Virus record (IMG/VR): IMGVR_UViG_2531839474_000013
Coordinates: 1 to 33,624 of that record
Source of the DNA: a virus
Taxonomy: Duplodnaviria > Heunggongvirae > Uroviricota > Caudoviricetes
Direction: 5' to 3' (one strand)
Length of the DNA: 33,624 bases
Below, piece by piece: positions 14,830 to 29,265 of this stretch. A program made the translations under genes and the position numbers. The notes beneath the pieces are model-generated. The model was not told the origin of the DNA and did not search any database. It was given only the letters and a program-made list of their open reading frames with translations. Position 1 is the first letter of the stretch, and the number at the start of each line of letters is the position of its first letter.

Positions 14830-15882
14830 TTATTTCCCCACCAGTTCACTTACCTCTTTCGCCGTCTGATTAAACCGCTCTGACTCAAGTTCAACACCTA
14901 ACGCCCGACGCCCCAGCGCCATTGCTGCTTTTATTGTGGAACCGGATCCCATAAAGAAATCAGCAACCAGATCACCAGGTCGACTACTGGCATTGATTAT
15001 TTGCCGGAGCATATCCGCCGGTTTCTCGCACGGATGTTTACCCGGGTAGAACTGAACGGGCTTATGCGTCCAGACATCGGTATAAGGCACGGAGACTGAT
15101 ACGGAGAAATAGCGCCGGAGAGATTTAAACTCATCCAGCAATTCAGAATATTTGCGATTCAGTGAATCATAAGATGCCACCAGCTGGTGGTGTGGTTGTT
15201 CCAGTTGTTGTTCCTGAAACTTCTCTGCCGCTATACGGGAAAACAGTGCCTGTAACTTCCGATAGTCAGCCTCATTCGGCAACTGCCACTGACTGGCACC
15301 AAACCAGTGGGAAACCATATTTTTCTTACCTGTGGCTTCGGCAATTTGTTTTGCCGTTATACCCAGTTCGGCACGAGCATCCCTGAAATACGATATCAGC
15401 GGTGCCATTATGTGCTGTTTGAGTTCCCTTTCTTTTGCCGCATAGCCGTCACTTTTGGGCTGATATGGTCCCTGATAATGTTCAGCAAACAGAATGCGTT
15501 CTGTTGCCGGGAAATACGCCCGCAGGCTTTCCTTGTTACACCCGTTCCAGCGCCCGGACGGTTTCGCCCAGATAATGTGATTCAGCACATTAAAGCGTTC
15601 ACGCATCATGATTTCGGTGTCAGATGCCAGGCGATGACCACAGAACAGGTAGAGACTTCCGGCAGGTTTCAGTACCCGCCAGAATTGCGCCAGACACTGA
15701 TCCAGCCATTTCAGGTAATCATCGTCGCCCTTCCACTGGTTATCCCAGCCCTCGGGCTTCACTTTAAAGTATGGCGGGTCTGTGACTATCAGATCGACAG
15801 AGTTTTCCGGTAAGGTCTGGATAAATTCCAGGCAATCAGCGTTGATTAACTCACAACTGGATATTTTTACAGTATTAACCAT
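14830..15882 (-). CDS. DNA N6-adenine/N4-cytosine methyltransferase, beta class, orphan
   Basis: N-terminal DPPY motif (VTDPPYF) and C-terminal FxGxG motif (FFMGSGST); no adjacent restriction endonuclease gene. Confidence 0.85.
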   Translation of the reverse strand: MVNTVKISSCELINADCLEFIQTLPENSVDLIVTDPPYFKVKPEGWDNQWKGDDDYLKWLDQCLAQFWRVLKPAGSLYLFCGHRLASDTEIMMRERFNVLNHIIWAKPSGRWNGCNKESLRAYFPATERILFAEHYQGPYQPKSDGYAAKERELKQHIMAPLISYFRDARAELGITAKQIAEATGKKNMVSHWFGASQWQLPNEADYRKLQALFSRIAAEKFQEQQLEQPHHQLVASYDSLNRKYSELLDEFKSLRRYFSVSVSVPYTDVWTHKPVQFYPGKHPCEKPADMLRQIINASSRPGDLVADFFMGSGSTIKAAMALGRRALGVELESERFNQTAKEVSELVGK

Positions 15883-18440: not shown

Positions 18441-18740
18441 TTACCTCCAGATGCGTTGCTGGAATGTGCGGGACGGACGCGGCGGACGTTCGGAATAAGG
18501 GAGCCTGACGGAGATTATCCAGTGGCGACGGTCAAGGCTGAGGTCTTTCTCAAACTCATACCCACGTCTGCGGTAGTTCTGAATCAGCCATTCGGCCTGT
18601 TCTTCAGTGCAGGGGTCATGCTGGAACCAGTCATATTTGAATGTGTGAGAACGCCGCCCGTGCCTGCTGGCAAAGACGGCTGAATTATCAGAATTGTGTA
18701 ATTTGGTCTTGTGCGCCATCTGTTTTCTCTGCTGGCGCAT
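18441..18740 (-). CDS. hypothetical nin-region protein
   Basis: 99-aa basic protein; stop is 2 nt from the DUF968 start; start codon uncertain (ATG 18740 or 18719). Confidence 0.45.
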   Translation of the reverse strand: MRQQRKQMAHKTKLHNSDNSAVFASRHGRRSHTFKYDWFQHDPCTEEQAEWLIQNYRRRGYEFEKDLSLDRRHWIISVRLPYSERPPRPSRTFQQRIWR

Positions 18741-18804: not shown

Positions 18805-19017
18805 TCAAGTCCGCATAAACTGATACACGATCTCCCTGAGCACTGTTTTCGATACAATTCGCTCATCAGCCCGCAAAGCTCTTACCCTAAGCATGTTCCC
18901 TTTTCGATGCCATACAGCTCTGGCTCCATCCGGAAAACAATCCATTTCAGCTACAACCGACATATCGTCACAACGAATAACTGCGTACTTACAATTCGCG
19001 GCGATCAACTTCTGCAT
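18805..19017 (-). CDS. hypothetical small protein
   Basis: 70 aa; ATG with AGAGG 8-9 nt upstream. Confidence 0.4.
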   Translation of the reverse strand: MQKLIAANCKYAVIRCDDMSVVAEMDCFPDGARAVWHRKGNMLRVRALRADERIVSKTVLREIVYQFMRT

Positions 19018-19114
19018 TGTAAAACCTCTGGTATTGGATAAAACATGGCTGGAATATATCCACTACAAATAACGATTTCACTCCCAAAAAATGCGTATTT
19101 CATGAGAAAAAACA

Positions 19115-19156
19115 ATGACTTTTTCTTTCTGTCATTTGTATACTCTAAAAATAGAG
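19115..19156 (+). promoter_or_regulatory. candidate promoter and palindromic operator of the toxin-antitoxin operon
   Basis: -35-like ATGACT, 18-nt spacer, -10 TATACT (19139..19144), then the palindrome CTCTAAAAATAGAG (19143..19156). Confidence 0.3.
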
Positions 19157-19258
19157 TGTTTTTTGAGCCGCCATTCCTTAGCAAGTCCTCTGTATGGATA
19201 TTGCCTGCCCTATTTAATTGTGTCACACTATGTATTACACAACGGTATGGAACCAAAC

Positions 19259-19630
19259 ATGCGCATTTTCAAAAATGCCTGGTTTGAACGCTTCGCACGA
19301 AAAAATCGGATTTCCGATAAAGCTCTGCGAGAAGTCGTGGAACTAGCTGATAAGGGACTCATATCCGCAGATTTGGGTAGTGGTGTCATTAAGCAGCGAT
19401 TAGCCCGAAGAGGTGGCGGTAAATCAGGCGGTTATAGGACAATAATTTTTTACCGCGTCGCAGAAAAGGCTTTTTTCATCTATGCGTACGCAAAGAATGA
19501 GAGAGAAAATATTACAGCCATCGAGGAAAACGCATTTCGAAAAGCTGCGCATCACGTTCTCAATCTTACTGATGAACAACTGGCGCAATTGATCCTGCAA
19601 GGTCAGTTTACGGAGGTACCCAATGAGTAA
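19259..19630 (+). CDS. type II toxin, RelE/ParE superfamily (HigB-2-like)
   Basis: GSGVIKQRLARRGGGKSGGYRTIIFY...YAKNERENI resembles V. cholerae HigB-2. Start placed at ATG 19259; the track's ORF from 19115 has a long, implausible leader. Toxin gene precedes the antitoxin. Confidence 0.75.
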   Translation: MRIFKNAWFERFARKNRISDKALREVVELADKGLISADLGSGVIKQRLARRGGGKSGGYRTIIFYRVAEKAFFIYAYAKNERENITAIEENAFRKAAHHVLNLTDEQLAQLILQGQFTEVPNE

Positions 19631-19940
19631 AAATTACCGCAGTGATGCACTTGCATCCGTACATGAAATGATGGAGTCACTTCAGGATATTGGCGCAGTT
19701 ACAAAACAAACTATGAGAGAGTTTGATGAACTCTGTCTGCAACCAGCGCCAACAATGTCGCCAGAAAGAATCCGGGCACTTCGCGAGCGCGAGCATCTGT
19801 CTCAACCTGTTTTCGCCAGATATCTTAATGTCAGTAAAAACCTCATTTCAGACTGGGAAAGGGGAATAAAGCGCCCTGGTGGCCCTGCCCTTCGTTTGCT
19901 TTCTGTGGTTGAGAAAAACGGAATTCAGTCAATCTGTTAA
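19623..19940 (+). CDS. HTH-XRE antitoxin (HigA-2-like)
   Basis: 105 aa; C-terminal HTH SQPVFARYLNVSKNLISDWERGIKRP; overlaps the toxin stop by 8 nt. Confidence 0.75.
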   Translation: MSKNYRSDALASVHEMMESLQDIGAVTKQTMREFDELCLQPAPTMSPERIRALREREHLSQPVFARYLNVSKNLISDWERGIKRPGGPALRLLSVVEKNGIQSIC

Positions 19941-22060: not shown

Positions 22061-22204
22061 TTCTGTTCTCCCACGTTTTCAGACTTTCACCACAGAACGG
22101 ACAAAATGAAACCCGCACTGGTGATTTAGAAAATTCACCGGAACGCAACATCACCAAATCAGGGCCGCGAGTTAAACTCTCATTCCAGATTTTGTATATC
22201 AGCA
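22053..22204 (-). pseudogene. C-terminal fragment of a zinc-ribbon gene split by the IS insertion
   Basis: Reads in frame with the fragment at 23515..23620 once the IS and one copy of the GCA duplication are removed; ends ...VRVSFCPFCGESLKTWENRNE*. Confidence 0.65.
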
Positions 22205-22243
22205 TGAACCGCCCCGGTTTTCCTGGAGAGTGTTTTATCTGTG
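22205..22243. repeat. terminal inverted repeat of the IS (orfB-distal end)
   Basis: TGAACCGCCCCGGTTTTCCTGGAGAGTG... is the reverse-complement match to the other end. Confidence 0.7.
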
Positions 22244-22246
22244 AAC

Positions 22247-23134
22247 TCAGGCTGCCAGATCATCGTTTCTGATGGAAGCATAATAAGCTTTTTCTGCTTC
22301 TGCCGGAGGGATATGACCCAGCCTTCCCAGCAATCGTCGATTGTTATACCAGTCCACCCACGTGAGTGTGGCCAGTTCCACTTCTGCACGGTTTTTCCAG
22401 CTCTTACGGTGTATTACCTCCGCTTTGTAAAGACCATTGATGCTCTCCGCCATCGCGTTGTCATACGAGTCACCTGTACTCCCTGTTGATGCCAGCAGTT
22501 TTGCTTCTTTTAGTCGCTCCGTATAGGCCAGTGATACATACTGAGAACCTTTATCACTGTGATGGACTGTGCCGGACGGCCGACGGGCCCACAACGCCTG
22601 CTCCAGTGCATCCAGCACGAATGTCGTTTCCATAGACGATGAGACTCGCCACCCCACGATACATCCGGCAAACACATCAATGATGAACGCCACATAGACG
22701 AAGCCCTGCCATGTGCTGACGTAAGTAAAATCAGCCACCCACAGCTGGTCAGGACGTTCTGCCACGAACTGACGGTTTACGCGGTCGCCTGCGGAAACGG
22801 CTTTCCGGCTGACGGTAGTACGGACCTTTTTACCCCGGAGAACACCGGCAAGTCCCATAACCGCCATGAGGCGCGCCACTGTACATCTGGCCACCCTGAT
22901 ACCTTCGCGTAACAACTGGCGCCAGACTTTACGCACACCGTACACCTGATGATTTTCATCGTATACGCGCTGTATCTCTCTCTTCAGCCAGTCATCGCGC
23001 TGAGCACGGGCACTGCGTTTATCAGGATGATGTCGCTGTTGCTGACAGTGGTAATACGTTGACGGGGCAATATGCAGTTCACTGCATACCGGTCCGACCC
23101 CGTACTGCTCACGCAGCTTATCCAGCAGCGGCAT
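22247..23134 (-). CDS. IS3-family transposase OrfB (DDE catalytic domain)
   Basis: 295 aa with integrase-core-like motifs (ADFTYV, HSDKGSQY, DNAMAES); in the -1 frame relative to orfA. Confidence 0.9.
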   Translation of the reverse strand: MPLLDKLREQYGVGPVCSELHIAPSTYYHCQQQRHHPDKRSARAQRDDWLKREIQRVYDENHQVYGVRKVWRQLLREGIRVARCTVARLMAVMGLAGVLRGKKVRTTVSRKAVSAGDRVNRQFVAERPDQLWVADFTYVSTWQGFVYVAFIIDVFAGCIVGWRVSSSMETTFVLDALEQALWARRPSGTVHHSDKGSQYVSLAYTERLKEAKLLASTGSTGDSYDNAMAESINGLYKAEVIHRKSWKNRAEVELATLTWVDWYNNRRLLGRLGHIPPAEAEKAYYASIRNDDLAA

Positions 23135-23460
23135 TATTTTTTCCAGAGGCGGTCGAACTCCGCCTTCGCAAAATAAGCGGAAGCCTGGCGAAGGATATCG
23201 TTACTGCGGCGCAGTTCACGATTTTCACGTTCCAGCTCTTTCAGACGCTGACGTTCAGCGGTGGTGAGTCCACCATCACCACTCCCGGTATCCCGCTCAT
23301 GCTGACGAACCCACACACGCAGAGTCTCTGGTGTACAGCCAATCTTTGGGGCAATGGAACAAATTGCCGCCCATTGTGAGTCATATTCGCCCTGACTTTC
23401 CAGAACCATACGAACTGCCCGTTGACGGACCTCGGGGGAAAAACGTGTATTTTTAGTCAT
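23134..23460 (-). CDS. IS3-family transposase OrfA (HTH domain)
   Basis: 108 aa with HTH and leucine-zipper-like C-terminus; ends TGG AAA AAA TAA, where orfB continues in the -1 frame. Confidence 0.9.
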
Positions 23461-23475
23461 CCTGTTTACCTCTTT

Positions 23476-23514
23476 CTCAGGGAGTTTAGTCTCCAGGATT
23501 CCCGGGGCGGTTCA
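23476..23514. repeat. terminal inverted repeat of the IS (orfA-proximal end)
   Basis: Minus strand TGAACCGCCCCGGGAATCCTGGAGACTAAACTCC..., 54 nt upstream of the orfA ATG. Confidence 0.7.
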
Positions 23515-25029: not shown

Positions 25030-25995
25030 TTACCCCCTGAACCCCGGCGGAATTTCGGTGTCCGGTTCAGAAATGTGATTCACGCAACGCTGTACAGGCG
25101 AACGCCCCAGACGAATAACCAGCTCATCCCATTTTTCGCGAAGCTTTGACGGGCTCATGACGTTTTTTACCCAGAAGGGATCCCGCTGCACCCGACCAAA
25201 CATTTCGCAAATTTGTCTGTGAGTTCTGCCATCCAGCATCCGCATTGTGCGCACATCATTGGCCCATGCAGTCCAATTGGGTTCTTTCGGTCGCATGATT
25301 TCGCCATCATCGCTGGCAGCCTGCTCGTAAAGACTCACGATTCGTCCCCAGATCCACTGCGCACACGCTAAATCTTCCTGGCTGCCCCACTGGCGTTTTT
25401 TCGCACTGAACACAACCGCGTCAGGATGTCGGGTCAAAAAATCCTGTTCAGCCGTCTGCATGTCCGGTTGCAAAGCTTCCGGACGAGAAGTGTTTTTATT
25501 CTCTGTAGTAATCTCTGTTGTATTCTCTGTAAGATCATCAGGCCATTTTGACCCGATGACATTGTGTCGTTTTGAACCAATGGAGCGTGTCATTTTGGCC
25601 TCTTCCATCGTGTCATTTTGACCTGATGGAGCGGCGCATTTTGACCTGATGGATTCGCTCACTTTGCCACCATCTAAAAGCTCGCTCTCGTAATTAATCG
25701 TGTAAAAATTAGTCATGTCACGCTTTGATTTGTTGAGCTTTTCGCAACGCAAAAGCCCCAGCGCTTTCAGACTTGCAAATGCGCGTTTTAACGTTGACTC
25801 TGACCAGAACGGGAACTGTTCCAGCCATTGTTCTGTTGTGTTATAAATCCAGCGAACACCATCACATTCCATGCCGGAACCGGTATCTCTCAACCAGTAA
25901 TGCAGCTGCTGCAACACGATGGCTTCGTTCAGACCAATTTTCATCGCCAGCTGCGTGTTAATAACCAGTGGGCGTTCAGCAAAAAGAAGACTCAT
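25030..25995 (-). CDS. replication initiator (lambda O-like role) with iterons inside the gene
   Basis: Start placed at ATG 25995 (MSLLFAERPL..), about 321 aa; immediately downstream of the immunity region; the coding sequence contains the repeats listed at 25544..25680. Confidence 0.65.
   Translation of the reverse strand: MSLLFAERPLVINTQLAMKIGLNEAIVLQQLHYWLRDTGSGMECDGVRWIYNTTEQWLEQFPFWSESTLKRAFASLKALGLLRCEKLNKSKRDMTNFYTINYESELLDGGKVSESIRSKCAAPSGQNDTMEEAKMTRSIGSKRHNVIGSKWPDDLTENTTEITTENKNTSRPEALQPDMQTAEQDFLTRHPDAVVFSAKKRQWGSQEDLACAQWIWGRIVSLYEQAASDDGEIMRPKEPNWTAWANDVRTMRMLDGRTHRQICEMFGRVQRDPFWVKNVMSPSKLREKWDELVIRLGRSPVQRCVNHISEPDTEIPPGFRG
25544..25680. repeat. candidate replication origin: five to six iteron-like direct repeats
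   Basis: CATTTTGACC(C/T)GATGGA-like units at 23-24 bp spacing, followed by an AT-rich stretch at 25681..25720; they encode the repetitive peptide ..SIRSK..SIGSK..VIGSK... Confidence 0.6.
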
Positions 25996-26497
25996 AATTC
26001 CATCCGACTTTTTGTTGATATTGCTGACGATACGCACGCTTGAAAGCAATGGCTTTTTCTATAAGCTCGTCAGTCTCACGTTCCACAACAGCTGGATCCG
26101 CAAAAAGCAGCCCGGACTCCACCACATCGCCATATTCTTTGTTTAACCCGGCGATCATGTACGTAATGCTTTTTCCGTCAGTAATTTCACAATACAACCT
26201 GAAATCGCTGATCCGGATAGCCTCCATAATTGCCGGAATCAGCGCCGTGAATTTTTCACGCTTATCCCTGGTGTCGATAGCTTTCCAGCGTTCGAATATC
26301 TTCACCCTGTTAACGCCCAGCGCCCGTTGATCAACCGCGCCATCATCAAACGTGACGCGATGAACATCGATGTTCGGGCGTTCTTTCAGAGCCCAGAATG
26401 CTTCCGTGATTAATATCGTCGCCTGCTCCTGCGTCATTCCTGGTCGGCATACCCAGGCATCCAGAGCCTCGCGAGCCTGCTCAGGAGTGAATATCAT
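25976..26497 (-). CDS. YdaT-like protein (Rac prophage ydaT position)
   Basis: 173 aa; REKFTALIPAIMEAIRISDFRLYCEITD resembles my memory of E. coli YdaT; follows the YdaS-like gene. Confidence 0.5.
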   Translation of the reverse strand: MIFTPEQAREALDAWVCRPGMTQEQATILITEAFWALKERPNIDVHRVTFDDGAVDQRALGVNRVKIFERWKAIDTRDKREKFTALIPAIMEAIRISDFRLYCEITDGKSITYMIAGLNKEYGDVVESGLLFADPAVVERETDELIEKAIAFKRAYRQQYQQKVGWNYESSFC

Positions 26498-26756
26498 TGT
26501 TCACCGCCAGTGATTCATTCGACATACACTTATTTTCACAAGGTAGTCCATCTGTTGGGTTGGGATAAATGTCAGGGCGAAGTTCGTGGGGAGTAATTTC
26601 CCAATTCAGTAATGCACAGAGTGACGACACGCGTTCAGCAGGAACCTTGCCTTTAATGAACCACTTGCCTACGGCCTGGGAGCTAATGCCAAAGTGTTTG
26701 CCAATGTCAGTTTTCGACATTTTTTTAGAGATCTTATCGTGAATTTGATTACTCAT
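26481..26756 (-). CDS. Cro/YdaS-like HTH regulator
   Basis: HTH (IGKHFGISSQAVGKWFIKG); divergent from the repressor gene; start placed at ATG 26756 (GGTGGAAAG upstream). Confidence 0.65.
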   Translation of the reverse strand: MSNQIHDKISKKMSKTDIGKHFGISSQAVGKWFIKGKVPAERVSSLCALLNWEITPHELRPDIYPNPTDGLPCENKCMSNESLAVNNDIHS

Positions 26757-26796
26757 ACTTTCCACCAGTACTATTAATTTCACCTACGCTACCATC

Positions 26797-26832
26797 AAAA
26801 ACTATAAGTTTCAACACAAAACCTATAGTTTT
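26797..26832. promoter_or_regulatory. operator region with two related palindromic 15-mers between the divergent regulator genes
   Basis: AAAAACTATAAGTTT (26797..26811) and AAAACCTATAGTTTT (26818..26832). A -10-like TATACT at 26857..26862 sits 7 nt before the repressor ATG, suggesting a leaderless mRNA. Confidence 0.5.
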
Positions 26833-26868
26833 GCTGATTGGTGAAACCTTTGGTTGTATACTTAAAAA

Positions 26869-27279
26869 ATGAGTAAAATAAACCATCCAATATTTGCTGA
26901 GAGAGTTCGGCAAGCAATGAGCGAACATGGCTGGTCGTTAGCCGGTCTGGCTAAAAAGGTTATGCTGTCCCATACCGCTGTGCGTAAGTGGGCAACAGGA
27001 GAAACCATTGCCAGCGGAGAAAGATTAAAAAGACTTGCCGCGGTAACAGGAAAACCAGAACATTGGTTTTTTATGCCGCTAAATGAACATTCAAAGGAAG
27101 AAGATGCACCACCACTAATCCAGCTTGACGACAAAGAAAAGGCGCTATTGTCCCTTTTTAATCAGTTGCCAGAAACGGAAAAGCTGAGACTAATCATGCA
27201 CACAAAAAGCATTCTTCATGAAATGGATCTTCTAAAAAACGATGTATACGACATAATCAATGATATTCAAAAACAATAA
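26869..27279 (+). CDS. prophage repressor, HTH-XRE, RacR/DicA-like (no S24 peptidase domain)
   Basis: 136 aa; N-terminal HTH; C-terminal EKALLSLFNQLPETEK resembles DicA; divergent from the Cro-like gene. Confidence 0.8.
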   Translation: MSKINHPIFAERVRQAMSEHGWSLAGLAKKVMLSHTAVRKWATGETIASGERLKRLAAVTGKPEHWFFMPLNEHSKEEDAPPLIQLDDKEKALLSLFNQLPETEKLRLIMHTKSILHEMDLLKNDVYDIINDIQKQ

Positions 27280-27286
27280 GTTACAT

Positions 27287-27316
27287 GAAAAAAGCGCCTC
27301 CCTGGCGCTTTTTTTA
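27287..27316. terminator. bidirectional intrinsic terminator after the repressor gene
   Basis: AAAAAAGCGCCTCCCTGGCGCTTTTTTT. Confidence 0.65.
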
Positions 27317-27350
27317 TCCTCACAAATAAAACTTTATGTTCCATTGCCTA

Positions 27351-27379
27351 TTGACCAATAAAACCAATAGTTTTACCAT
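27351..27379 (+). promoter_or_regulatory. candidate repressor-controlled promoter with a third operator copy
   Basis: TTGACC, 17 nt, TACCAT; the spacer contains AAAACCAATAGTTTT (27360..27374), a 14/15 match to the operator at 26818..26832. Confidence 0.35.
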
Positions 27380-27596
27380 TCATTCCATCAACAACGAACC
27401 GCATCGTTGTCAGGCTAAAGTTCCGCTACCCCGGCGTTAAGGGGAAACAGAGGATTTCTCAGTGGGCGAAGTCAAACATCAGAATGGAAGGCATCAAGGG
27501 ATCAGCAAAGAAACAGCGATGGCGCTTTATATTGATATCAGCGCCATTGCCGGACAGGTAAGAGTTATCAGAGCGGTAACTAAGCGGTATGCGCCT

Positions 27597-27797
27597 TTAC
27601 TTCAGAAAGTCTCTGGTGAGTGCACCGAAGATATTGTCAACGATTTCGTCATCGAACTGCGAGGACTCATCTTCAGTTACAAGGTGACCACAATTTTTGC
27701 AGATGGTTCCCGCGAAACTGTCAGAGCCATGCGGTTTAAAGGATGTGTCAAAGACTTCGCCGCCACATTCTGGGCAAGAAAACTTGATTGTATTCAT
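27597..27797 (-). CDS. hypothetical zinc-ribbon protein (66 aa)
   Basis: CPECGG...CKNCG pair with acidic C-terminus; ATG 27797 with AGAGGAAA 7 nt upstream. A 118-aa plus-strand ORF overlaps it completely, so the assignment is uncertain. Confidence 0.45.
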   Translation of the reverse strand: MNTIKFSCPECGGEVFDTSFKPHGSDSFAGTICKNCGHLVTEDESSQFDDEIVDNIFGALTRDFLK

Positions 27798-27889
27798 AAC
27801 CAATTTCCTCTCGAGTAACAGATCCCTCAGAGGATACCACCTCGCCTGACGTGGTTAAAAGCAGGCAACGCTAACCACAAGGAGCCGAC

Positions 27890-28704: not shown

Positions 28705-29265
28705 TTCATCCTCCTGAGGGTTAGTAATTAAGGAGTTCTCCACGGGTGAGGTGGAGTGCGTGCGCCGGACACGGGTGAGCATCCGGCACTGACAGTTTAC
28801 TGAAAGGATATCTCCCTGAAAAGTCAGGGCATAACGCGAAAGCGCACGGCGAAGTTGTTGGTTCATAGATAGCCTGTCGTTAAATTTTCGTCGACCGTGC
28901 GCTTCCGGTTGTGGCACTCCGCGAAATGGCGCGGCGGTAAGTATGGCGGGGTTATTCCTTCCCCGTTGAGGACACCGGGTTGTCAGGTTGACCATACGCT
29001 TAAGTGACAACCCCGCTGCAACGCCCTCTGTTATCAATTTTCTGGTGACGTTTGGCGGTATCAGTTTTACTCCGTGACTGCTCTGCCGCCCTTTTTAAAG
29101 TGAATTTTGTGATGCGGTGAATGCGGCTAAGCGCACGAGGAACAGTTAAAACCAAAAACAGTGTTATGGGTGGATTCTCTGTATCCGGCGTTAATTGTTA
29201 ACTGGTTAACGTCACCTGGAGGCACCAGGCACTGCATCACAAAATTCATTGTTGAGGACGCGATA

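What the first reader, a model, noticed from the sequence alone, without database searches (positions are those of the whole stretch)
26797..27379. Three copies of a 15-bp palindromic operator flank the repressor gene, which appears to be leaderless
AAAACCTATAGTTTT and AAAAACTATAAGTTT lie between the divergent Cro-like and repressor genes. A 14/15 match, AAAACCAATAGTTTT, sits beyond the repressor's terminator inside a TTGACC-17-TACCAT promoter-like arrangement. This is an OR/OL-like layout around a repressor that lacks a peptidase domain. The -10-like TATACT sits 7 nt before the repressor ATG, suggesting a leaderless mRNA like lambda cI from PRM.
Basis: seen in the sequence. Interest (0 to 1): 0.4.

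Follow-up and report, generated by a model that had tools for sequence, protein, structure and literature searches.

The report
Gifsy-type prophage immunity switch, leaderless repressor
This is the on/off switch of a lambda-like prophage, built around a short repressor that cannot cut itself; it has five repressor-binding sites and a repressor mRNA with no leader, and it is an ordinary new member of a well-studied class (Salmonella Gifsy phages, E. coli Qin/DicA).

Summary
All three 15-bp palindromes, the TTGACC-17-TACCAT promoter, the terminator, and TATACT 6 nt before the repressor ATG are at the stated coordinates and far exceed chance.

There are five sites (consensus RAAAC-N5-GTTKY): OR1-OR3 between cro and the repressor gene, and OL2 and OL1 at PL. 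The repressor is 63% identical to Gifsy-1/-2 GtgR and 30% identical to DicA.

In 50 distinct relatives, 49 have a TAnnnT hexamer 6-7 nt before the ATG and none has a Shine-Dalgarno motif; among control ORFs the figure is 1 of 322. Site positions are conserved. Half-sites are kept in relatives that share the recognition helix and differ in distant helix classes.

Published TSS mapping shows that dicA, racR and paaR2 mRNAs are leaderless.

PL drives a dicBF-type operon that contains a DicF sRNA.

No dinI/LexA antirepressor operon is present. An unannotated 70-aa ORF is a candidate antirepressor.

Verdict: a new immunity specificity within a known kind, of low to moderate interest. Nothing here was tested experimentally.

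The parts
26481..26756 (-). cro analogue (YdaS family, 91 aa), first gene of the PR operon. It is followed by a YdaT/CII-like gene (25976-26497) and replication genes.
   Evidence: Pfam YdaS_toxin 5.6e-10. phrog_35, transcriptional repressor, 2e-21. RefSeq annotates the same 276-nt CDS in SLK172.
26786..26814 (-). PR: -35 TTGAAA (26814-26809), 17-nt spacer, extended -10 TGgTAGCGT (26794-26786). Predicted start near 26779, giving a 23-nt leader with the SD GGTGGA.
   Evidence: Read from the sequence. Equivalent TTGAAA/TTGGAA-17-TAnnnT hexamers lie at the aligned position in relatives, several with TGn. It was not called by the consensus scan because the -10 matches only 3/6.
26798..26812 (.). 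OR1: GAAACTTATAGTTTT (read on the minus strand). It overlaps the -35 and spacer of PR. Its centre is at -64 from the repressor ATG.
   Evidence: AAAACTATTAGTTTC lies at the same offset in the same-helix relatives L026 and L029.
26818..26832 (.). OR2: AAAACCTATAGTTTT, a perfect 5-N5-5 palindrome. Its centre is at -44 from the predicted PRM start, the position from which lambda cI at OR2 activates PRM.
   Evidence: A site occupies the same offset in all relatives.
26843..26857 (.). OR3: GAAACCTTTGGTTGT. Its last T is the first T of the PRM -10. Its centre is at -19, where occupancy would shut off PRM.
   Evidence: It has 2 mismatches in the 10 half-site positions. It is nearly identical (GAAACCTTAGGTTGT, GAAACCATAGGTTGT, AAAACCATTGGTTGT) at the same offset in relatives.
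26857..26871 (+). PRM -10 TATACT (26857-62), 6 nt, then ATG (26869). The predicted transcript start is the A of the ATG, so the mRNA is leaderless. No recognisable -35.
   Evidence: 49 of 50 relatives have TAnnnT at 6-7 nt, 0 of 50 have an SD motif, and controls give 1 of 322. Experimental precedent for the class: PMC4681348, PMC9638921, PMC8630535.
26869..27279 (+). Repressor, 136 aa: XRE HTH domain (residues 7-68), linker, C-terminal helical hairpin (88-135). Gifsy GtgR/DicA-type, no S24 peptidase.
27285..27317 (+). Intrinsic terminator of the repressor gene: a GC stem flanked by an A-run and a U-run.
   Evidence: RNA fold gives -19 kcal/mol, z = -6.8, and 0 of 200 shuffles fold as well.
27328..27342 (.). 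OL2: AAAACTTTATGTTCC, 32 bp (centre to centre) upstream of OL1.
   Evidence: A palindrome lies at the same place in relatives. It is 14/15 identical to Gifsy-2 OR1.
27351..27379 (+). PL: TTGACC, 17 nt, TACCAT. OL1 (AAAACCAATAGTTTT, 27360-27374) fills the spacer and shares its last T with the -10.
   Evidence: Same geometry in Qin dicBp (TTGACC-17-TAATCT with TTAGTCATGGCTAAT), Gifsy-2 and phage contigs.
27391..27410 (+). Conserved inverted repeat or 5'-terminal hairpin of the PL transcript (ACAACGA accgca TCGTTGT), starting about 4 nt after the predicted start (27386/7). It also marks the right edge of the immunity-specific DNA.
   Evidence: No Rfam match.
29040..29091 (+). DicF sRNA within the PL-driven early-left operon.
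   Evidence: Rfam RF00039, 76.7 bits against a gathering score of 48.

Best explanation
Window 26480-27410 is the immunity switch of a lambdoid prophage of the Gifsy/Qin (GtgR/DicA) type.

The repressor is a 136-aa protein with an XRE HTH domain and a C-terminal helical hairpin. By homology it should act as a dimer. It is inferred to bind 15-bp 5-N5-5 palindromes (consensus RAAAC-N5-GTTKY) at five places.

Inferred roles of the sites:
- OR1 covers the -35 and spacer of PR, so occupancy blocks transcription of cro (YdaS type), the CII-like ydaT gene and the replication genes.
- OR2, centred at -44 from the repressor's own start, is placed to stimulate the PRM-like promoter, which has no -35. 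This is inferred by analogy with lambda cI and with published DicA and PaaR2 autoactivation.
- OR3 overlaps the PRM spacer and -10 and would limit repressor synthesis. It is also the likely preferred target of Cro.
- OL1 fills the spacer of PL, and OL2 lies 32 bp upstream. Occupancy would silence the early-left operon (ydfC, DicF sRNA, exonuclease, xis, int).

The repressor mRNA is inferred to start at the A of its ATG and so to be leaderless.

Because the protein has no peptidase domain, induction should work through a small antirepressor that binds the repressor rather than through RecA-stimulated self-cleavage. The Gifsy dinI-gftA operon and its LexA box are absent here. An unannotated 70-aa ORF (18805-19017, minus strand) is the only candidate.

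Shown here: sequence anatomy, statistics, conservation, homology. Inferred: binding, promoter activity, transcript starts, activation, induction route.
For: Sequence anatomy and statistics.

Homology: 63% identity to Gifsy-1/-2 GtgR over the full length, 30% to DicA with a shared LLxLFNxLPExE motif, and a family of about 135-aa HTH-only proteins.

Conserved architecture: three OR sites at about -64, -44 and -19, and two OL sites, in Gifsy-2, 13 genomic loci and phage contigs.

Same helix, same half-sites: L026 and L029 (76-79% identical, helix SHTAVRKW) keep AAAAC..GTTTT at all five positions although the flanks have diverged.

Different helix classes have different half-sites: ACAAG..CTTGT, TGAAA..TTTCA, CAAG..CTAG.

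OL-versus-OR best matches: self 13.1 of 15, other helix groups 11.5, shuffled 10.9 +/- 0.8.

Leaderless geometry: 49 of 50 relatives against 1 of 322 controls, and 0 of 50 with an SD motif. The start codon is unambiguous.

Published experiments on relatives:
- GtgR binds the Gifsy-2 right operator and is released by GftA; GfoR elutes as a dimer (PMC3121763).
- DicA binds the inverted repeat Oc, represses dicC and dicBp, activates dicA, and is antagonised by Rem (PMC3441716, PMC10448788).
- dicA, racR and paaR2 mRNAs are leaderless (PMC4681348, PMC9638921, PMC8630535).

Structure: HTH domain plus helical hairpin. The best full-length PDB analogue is SinR/SinI, and the N-domain superposes on P22 c2 at 0.9 A.

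DicF lies downstream of PL.
Against: There are no binding, footprint or TSS data for this particular immunity type.

The PR -10 (TAGCGT) matches only 3/6 and needs the TG extension. PRM has no -35. The consensus promoter scan found no more sites in the region than in shuffles (3 against 3.0).

Only two OL sites are visible, whereas three are reported for lambda, DicA and PaaR2.

Half-sites of helix groups A, B and C share an AAC..GTT core and cross-match at 12-14 of 15, so the link between operator and helix is clear only for distant groups.

OR1-OR2 spacing is 20 bp here against 22-24 bp in relatives.

In DicA, only one of the three sequence-predicted OR sites bound in vivo (PMC3441716). racR has additional leadered promoters (PMC9638921).

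No recognisable dinI/LexA/gftA or rem homologue is present. ORF70 is linked to GftA only through an intermediate.
Confidence: 0.82

Rival explanations
1. The palindromes are mainly Cro (YdaS) sites, or the repressor recognises a different or overlapping repeat set, so the 15-mers are not the true repressor operators.
For: In CP-933P, the PaaR2 and YdaS footprints overlap, and the authors could not decide between inverted and pseudo-symmetric repeats (PMC8630535). RacR sites were modelled as nine monomer sites (PMC9638921). DicA bound only Oc of the three predicted OR sites in vivo (PMC3441716).
Against: OL1 and OL2 carry the same motif about 540 bp from cro, at the promoter a repressor must silence. 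The motif tracks the repressor's recognition-helix class across loci. In lambdoid switches Cro and the repressor share operators, so this is a refinement rather than a contradiction.
Confidence: 0.1
2. The repressor mRNA is not leaderless. It is made from promoter(s) further upstream, or from a CII/YdaT-dependent PRE-like promoter, and is translated without an SD motif from an A-rich leader.
For: racR has two additional upstream promoters (PMC9638921). PRM here has no -35. A CII-like YdaT is encoded next door, so an establishment transcript is plausible.
Against: The TAnAAT hexamer is held at 6-7 nt from the ATG in 49 of 50 diverse relatives, while the bases in between vary and none carries an SD motif; controls give 1 of 322. 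Leaderless starts have been mapped for dicA, racR, ymfK and paaR2 (PMC4681348, PMC9638921, PMC8630535). Extra leadered transcripts could coexist with the leaderless one.
Confidence: 0.08
3. The repeats are chance AT-rich palindromes in AT-rich intergenic DNA and have no regulatory role.
For: The region is AT-rich. Near-matches also occur elsewhere: at 19021, 19109, 19148 and 23440. The one upstream of ORF70 does not track immunity type.
Against: Shuffles of the same intergenic segments give 0.015 and 0.25 hits against 3 and 5 observed. Positions are conserved across more than 50 loci, and half-sites are conserved in diverged same-helix relatives.
Confidence: 0.02

Closest known systems
Salmonella Gifsy-1/Gifsy-2 (LT2) repressor GtgR and its immunity region (Lemire et al. 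2011, PMC3121763)
   Same: Both repressors are 136 aa and they are 63% identical. Both have an HTH domain, the C-terminal LFNQLPE helical region and no cleavage motif. Both have a divergent cro and the same five-site layout: three OR sites, two OL sites, OL1 in the PL spacer. Both have TAAAAT or TATACT 6 nt before the ATG, and the same PL leader hairpin.
   Different: The recognition helix differs (SHTAVRKW here, SHTSVRKW in GtgR), and half-sites lean to AAAAC..GTTTT rather than RGAAC..GTTCC. OR1-OR2 spacing is 20 bp against 24 bp. The cro and cII genes are of the YdaS/YdaT type. The early-left operon is of the dicBF type. No dinI-gftA-irsA operon or LexA box is present in the window.
E. coli K-12 Qin prophage dicC-dicA-dicBp (DicA/DicC/Rem; PMC3441716, PMC10448788)
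   Same: Both have a short non-cleavable repressor with an experimentally leaderless mRNA, a divergent cro analogue, and a TTGACC-17-TAnnnT promoter downstream of the repressor terminator with a palindrome in the spacer. In both, that promoter drives a ydf/DicF operon. The leader sequence gttccgctacccc(g/a)gcgttaaggggaaa is shared.
   Different: Identity is only 30%, and the window's repressor scores below the NCBIfam DicA cut-off (47.6 against 101 bits). The operator is unrelated (TTAGTCATAACTAA). dicB is absent from the window's operon. There is no rem homologue.
CP-933P PaaR2/YdaS/YdaT switch of E. coli O157:H7 (PMC8630535), and RacR/YdaS of Rac (PMC9638921)
   Same: Both have a leaderless repressor gene divergent from ydaS-ydaT, with PR, PRM and PL analogues and shared operators. 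In both, YdaS acts as Cro and YdaT is CII-like.
   Different: PaaR2 and RacR are only distantly related to this repressor. PaaR2 has 18-bp repeats, forms octamers, and is co-transcribed with a toxin-antitoxin pair.
Phage lambda cI/cro OR-OL switch
   Same: Both have divergent PR and PRM with three operators, OL at PL, a leaderless cI mRNA, and an OR2-like site near -42/-44.
   Different: There is no S24 autoprotease domain here, so no RecA-mediated cleavage. The sites are 15 bp rather than 17 bp. Two OL sites are seen rather than three. No rexAB and no N gene is recognisable.
B. subtilis SinR/SinI (PDB 1b0n)
   Same: This is the best full-length structural analogue: an XRE HTH domain plus a C-terminal helical hook that is the target of a small antagonist protein.
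   Different: The resemblance is weak (E 3e-4, TM 0.42-0.54, 15% identity). SinR is not a phage repressor. The similarity is in fold and architecture only.

Membership tests
Gifsy-type (GtgR/GfoR/DicA/RacR) short non-cleavable prophage repressors | About 130-150 aa, N-terminal XRE-type HTH, no S24 peptidase domain or Ala-Gly / Ser-Lys cleavage apparatus | tested here: met
   136 aa. Pfam finds HTH_3/HTH_31 only. The model shows an HTH domain plus a helical hairpin. The family alignment shows no peptidase segment.
Gifsy-type (GtgR/GfoR/DicA/RacR) short non-cleavable prophage repressors | Sequence homology to a characterised member over the full length | tested here: met
   63% identity over 99% of the length to Gifsy-1/-2 GtgR, E 8e-54. 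30% identity to DicA, E 2e-11.
Gifsy-type (GtgR/GfoR/DicA/RacR) short non-cleavable prophage repressors | Occupies the cI position: divergent from a cro analogue and upstream of the early-left (PL) operon of a lambdoid prophage | tested here: met
Gifsy-type (GtgR/GfoR/DicA/RacR) short non-cleavable prophage repressors | Inactivated by binding of a small antirepressor protein | tested here: inconclusive
   No homologue of Rem, GftA, DinI or IrsA. ORF70 (18805-19017) matches the L029 ORF in the gftA position (E 3.6e-10), and that ORF matches GftA (E 2e-6), but ORF70 has no direct match to GftA and falls in a different PHROG. Binding itself cannot be tested with these tools.
Gifsy prophage induction module (LexA-controlled dinI-antirepressor-irsA operon) | LexA box in front of a dinI homologue followed by the antirepressor gene | tested here: not met
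   No dinI or irsA homologue. The only good LexA-like box (15855-15874) lies inside the DNA methylase gene. The module is present in the closest relative L029 and in Gifsy-2. The prophage may extend beyond the window.
DicA (NCBIfam NF007257 / PRK09706) | Score at or above the curated cut-off of the DicA model | tested here: not met
   47.6 bits against a cut-off of 101. The protein is related to DicA but not equivalent to it.
Lambda-type OR/OL operator architecture | Multiple copies of one palindromic operator overlapping divergent PR/PRM and a separate PL | tested here: met
   Five sites with the geometry described, conserved in relatives. This is sequence-level evidence only.
Lambda-type OR/OL operator architecture | Sequence-specific, cooperative repressor binding and OL-OR looping | not testable with these tools
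   Needs EMSA or footprinting and looping assays.
Leaderless mRNAs | The primary transcript 5' end coincides with the start codon | not testable with these tools
   The geometry fits: -10 hexamer, 6 nt, ATG, and no SD motif. 49 of 50 relatives show it against 1 of 322 controls. TSS have been mapped for dicA, racR and paaR2 (PMC4681348, PMC9638921, PMC8630535) but not for this gene.

The most novel reading that the evidence does not exclude
Induction of this prophage is uncoupled from SOS. Its switch would be flipped by an unannotated 70-aa GftA-like antirepressor (ORF70, 18805-19017). ORF70 has lost the dinI/LexA context, sits beside a RelE-type toxin-antitoxin pair, and is shared unchanged by prophages with two different immunity specificities whose repressors keep the same C-terminal LDDxEKxLLSLFNQLPETEKLRL hairpin. 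Separately, the invariant hairpin at the 5' end of the PL transcript is found in at least 87 phage contigs, in 72 of 75 evaluable cases 106-143 nt after a Gifsy-type repressor gene, and is absent from Rfam. It could be an undescribed cis-regulatory element of this switch family.
Probability: 0.2. Interest if true: 0.5.

Novelty: new member of a known kind. Interest (0 to 1): 0.25.

Why it matters
This defines the operators, three promoters and probable leaderless start of a rare immunity type, found in 5 of 5,426 complete E. coli genomes. The type belongs to the Gifsy/DicA class of prophage switches, which control cell-division inhibitors (DicF) and prophage induction in enterobacteria.

The comparative set assembled here (about 50 distinct switches) gives a table linking recognition helix to operator, and a family-wide rule for leaderless geometry. 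Both could guide immunity typing and annotation. The biology itself is already established for close relatives.

The side leads (an antirepressor without LexA control, and the conserved PL-leader hairpin) are the only parts with real discovery potential.

Tried and rejected
1. Repressor-controlled antirepressor. The best operator-like site outside the immunity region (AAAACCTCTGGTATT, 19021-19035) lies just upstream of ORF70. However, the identical ORF70 module sits next to a repressor with a different helix and different operators in L030 and L031, so the site does not track immunity type and is probably chance.

2. Search for a LexA/dinI/gftA or rem module in the window. None was found. The one good LexA-like box is inside the methylase gene.

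3. ORF99 (18441-18740), which occupies the position of rem. It shows no similarity to Rem or GftA.

4. Known RNA family for the PL leader. No Rfam hit even at E<=1. RNAalifold did not call hairpin 1. Explicit pair counting shows a mostly invariant stem with only two covarying inner pairs, so RNA-level and DNA-level function cannot be told apart.

5. Clean operator/helix covariation. It holds only partly: groups A, B and C share an AAC..GTT core.

6. Solved structure by sequence. There is no meaningful PDB relative.

7. DicA equivalence. Rejected by the NCBIfam cut-off.

8. The consensus scan tool missed PR (its -10 matches 3/6) and missed the terminator, whose stem extends into the A and U runs. 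Both were verified by other means.
Full report
**Observation**

The region was read directly. AAAAACTATAAGTTT lies at 26797-26811, AAAACCTATAGTTTT at 26818-26832 and AAAACCAATAGTTTT at 27360-27374. TTGACC (27351-56) and TACCAT (27374-79) are separated by 17 nt, and the consensus scan finds this pair. TATACT (26857-62) is followed by 6 nt and then the ATG at 26869.

A search with up to 3 mismatches gives 8 matches against 0.78 expected (0 of 100 shuffles reach 8). The five rows covering the three sites in the immunity region (two sites match on both strands) include every match with fewer than 3 mismatches. When only the two intergenic segments are shuffled, AAAAC-N5-GTTTT with at most 1 or at most 2 half-site mismatches occurs 3 and 5 times against 0.015 and 0.25 expected.

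The repressor's terminator is a -19 kcal/mol hairpin flanked by A and U runs (27285-27317, z = -6.8).

First, the first site reads better as GAAACTTATAGTTTT at 26798-26812 on the other strand. Second, there are two more degenerate sites: GAAACCTTTGGTTGT (26843-26857) and AAAACTTTATGTTCC (27328-27342).

**Genes and context**

- The 136-aa ORF at 26869-27279 has only an HTH_3/HTH_31 domain.
- The divergent 91-aa ORF (26481-26756, minus strand) belongs to the YdaS family. It is followed by a YdaT/CII-like gene and replication genes.
- Downstream of the putative PL lie an antisense ECs_2282 zinc-ribbon gene, ydfC, a DicF sRNA (29040-29091, Rfam 76.7 bits), a Rv2179c-type exonuclease, the excisionase and the integrase.
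- To the left lie the nin, Q, lysis and morphogenesis genes.

The window is thus most of a lambdoid prophage. The immunity segment (about 26510-27410) is rare: it occurs at 99% identity or more in 5 of 5,426 complete E. coli genomes. Its flanks are common mosaic modules. In strain SLK172 the same module precedes ydfA-ydfB-...-dicB, as in Qin.

**What the repressor is**

It is 63% identical over its full length to the Gifsy-1/Gifsy-2 (LT2) repressor GtgR. It is 30% identical to DicA, and the two share a C-terminal LLxLFNxLPExE motif. About 130 relatives across Enterobacteriaceae are all roughly 135 aa and carry only the HTH domain.

Lemire et al. (PMC3121763) showed that these repressors lack the cleavage motif. 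They also showed that GfoR elutes as a dimer, that GtgR shifts the Gifsy-2 right operator, and that a small antirepressor releases GtgR from the DNA. That antirepressor is encoded in a LexA-controlled dinI-gftA-irsA operon. DicA is likewise antagonised by Rem (PMC10448788).

An AlphaFold model (mean pLDDT 79.5) shows a five-helix HTH domain (residues 7-68), a low-confidence linker and a helical hairpin (88-135). The N-domain superposes on P22 c2 at 0.9 A. The best full-length analogue is SinR in its complex with the antagonist SinI. The protein scores below the NCBIfam DicA cut-off, so it is a relative of DicA and not DicA itself.

**Operators: comparative test**

I collected these loci:
- 13 genomic loci with repressors 51-67% identical
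- Gifsy-2
- the closest relatives, from Citrobacter braakii and Yersinia enterocolitica, 76-79% identical
- 80 listed IMG/VR phage-contig loci (of 87 matching stretches), found through the conserved PL leader

An unbiased scan for 5-N5-5 inverted repeats places sites at about -64 to -68, -43 to -45 and -19/-20 from the repressor ATG, and two sites about 30 bp apart downstream of the terminator, in locus after locus.

The close relatives share the window's recognition helix (SHTAVRKWATG). They keep AAAAC..GTTTT-type half-sites at all five positions although the surrounding DNA has diverged. Loci with SPQA/TPQA helices have different half-sites at the same positions: ACAAG..CTTGT, TGAAA..TTTCA, CAAG..CTAG.

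Quantitatively, the best OL-versus-OR 15-mer match is 13.1 of 15 within a locus, 12.9 within a helix group, 11.5 between groups, and 10.9 +/- 0.8 in shuffles. The test is only partly clean. The three SHT-helix groups share an AAC..GTT core and cross-match at 12-14. The window's OL2 is 14/15 identical to Gifsy-2 OR1, so partial cross-recognition cannot be excluded.

**Promoters**

- **PL.** This is TTGACC-17-TACCAT, with OL1 filling the spacer. Qin dicBp has the same geometry (TTGACC-17-TAATCT around TTAGTCATGGCTAAT), as does Gifsy-2.
- **PR.** Read on the minus strand, it is TTGAAA (26814-26809), 17 nt, then TGgTAGCGT (26794-26786). OR1 begins inside the -35. The scan tool missed it because the -10 matches only 3/6. 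However, the aligned position in relatives carries TTGAAA/TTGGAA-17-TAnnnT, often with a TG extension.
- **PRM.** It has a good -10 (TATACT) and no -35. OR2 is centred at -44 and OR3 at -19 from the ATG. These are the positions of the activating and the self-limiting sites in lambda. Autoactivation is published for DicA (PMC3441716) and PaaR2 (PMC8630535). For this window it is inference.

**Leaderless mRNA**

The ATG at 26869 is the only possible start. A TAA stop lies two codons upstream, and the invariant residues F9 and R12 precede the next in-frame Met. No Shine-Dalgarno motif is present.

Across 50 distinct family members, a TAnnnT hexamer lies 6 nt (29 cases) or 7 nt (20 cases) before the ATG. 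None has an SD-like 4-mer. The intervening bases vary. Among 322 control ORFs in the same loci, only one has such a hexamer.

Leaderless starts have been mapped experimentally for:
- dicA, racR and ymfK (PMC4681348, Fig. 2)
- the strongest racR promoter (PMC9638921)
- paaR2, by RACE and N-terminal sequencing (PMC8630535)

Additional leadered transcripts, as seen for racR, remain possible.

**Induction route**

No Rem, GftA, DinI or IrsA homologue is detectable in the window. The only good LexA-like box (15855-15874) lies in the first codons of a DNA methylase gene.

The closest relative, L029, does have a LexA box, then dinI, then a 68-aa ORF. That ORF matches GftA (E 2e-6) and the window's ORF70 at 18805-19017 (E 3.6e-10; tblastn against the window 4e-8). 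ORF70 is therefore a candidate antirepressor by transitive homology.

RefSeq does not annotate ORF70. It lies beside a RelE/HTH pair, roughly where rem lies in Qin.

The ORF70 module occurs in 10 of 5,426 genomes, including all five with this immunity type. In L030 and L031 it sits unchanged next to a heteroimmune repressor that shares the C-terminal LDDxEKxLLSLFNQLPETEKLRL segment. The operator-like site just upstream of ORF70 is unchanged there too, so I reject the idea that the repressor controls ORF70.

**PL leader**

A conserved inverted repeat starts 2-4 nt after the predicted PL start. The family consensus is CGACAAC-aagcgcaNc-GTTGTCAGG, and in the window it lies at 27391-27410. It is shared by heteroimmune loci and marks the right edge of the immunity-specific DNA.

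It occurs in at least 87 phage contigs. In 72 of 75 evaluable cases, the gene ending 106-143 nt upstream is a Gifsy-type repressor. The stem core is almost invariant, and only two inner pairs show compensatory changes. Qin has a different hairpin at the same place. There is no Rfam match.

It could be a 5'-terminal mRNA-stabilising hairpin, a protein-binding site, or a module-junction sequence. This is unresolved.

**Verdict**

It describes a new immunity specificity of a class whose logic is already published: short antirepressor-controlled repressor, OR/OL layout, leaderless mRNA. Novelty: new member of a known kind. Interest: 0.25. The open points are the induction route (ORF70, apparently without LexA control) and the conserved PL-leader element.

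Noticed in passing
window 27391-27410 (family consensus CGACAACaagcgcaNcGTTGTCAGG; for example L024 9535-9560): A conserved inverted repeat or 5'-terminal hairpin at the very start of the PL transcript. It is shared by heteroimmune Gifsy/Qin-type switches and found in at least 87 IMG/VR contigs. In 72 of 75 evaluable cases it lies 106-143 nt after a Gifsy-type repressor gene. It has no Rfam match. It coincides with the right-hand mosaic boundary of the immunity cassette.
   Followed up: partly
window 18805-19017 (-): An unannotated 70-aa ORF (phrog_1813). It is homologous to the ORF that follows dinI behind a LexA box in the closest relative L029, and that ORF matches the Gifsy antirepressor GftA. 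ORF70 is thus a candidate antirepressor, but here it has no dinI and no LexA box. The module occurs in only 10 of 5,426 E. coli genomes, including all five with this immunity type, and also with a second, heteroimmune repressor.
   Followed up: partly
window 19021-19035: AAAACCTCTGGTATT is the best operator-like match outside the immunity region and lies just upstream of the ORF70 ATG. It is unchanged in prophages with a different repressor, so it is probably coincidental.
   Followed up: yes
window 29040-29091 (+): A DicF sRNA gene (Rfam 76.7 bits) lies inside the PL-driven early-left operon. No dicB gene was seen between it and the exonuclease gene.
   Followed up: partly
window 15855-15874: A LexA-box-like sequence, AACTGGATATTTTTACAGTA (16/20, both CTG and CAG cores present), lies in the first codons of a DNA methylase gene (14830-15882, minus strand), downstream of the Q antiterminator gene.
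   Followed up: partly
window ~22200-23500 (ALIL pseudoknot 23063-23179, -): An IS3-family insertion sequence (orfA/orfB with a frameshift pseudoknot, Rfam 120.9 bits) is inserted in the nin region of the prophage.
   Followed up: no
window 19115-19940 (+): A RelE-family toxin (PF06296, 1.3e-46) and an HTH antitoxin-like gene are oriented against the surrounding nin genes, analogous to relBE/hokD next to rem in Qin. Two operator-like near-matches (19109, 19148) lie in the upstream region of this pair.
   Followed up: no
window 27462-27818 (+) and 27597-27803 (-): An ECs_2282-family CxxC zinc-ribbon gene lies antisense within the PL operon. It is overlapped by a 118-aa plus-strand ORF that starts at GTG 27462 behind a GAGGA, exactly where ydfA starts in Qin. 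Which of the two is expressed is unclear.
   Followed up: no
window 27328-27342 vs L024 8925-8939: OL2 (AAAACTTTATGTTCC) is 14/15 identical to Gifsy-2 OR1 (AAAACTTTAGGTTCC). Operators of the three SHT-helix groups share an AAC..GTT core, so partial cross-immunity with Gifsy-2-type repressors is conceivable.
   Followed up: partly
window 26798-26832: The OR1-OR2 centre-to-centre distance is 20 bp here, against 22-24 bp in every relative examined.
   Followed up: no
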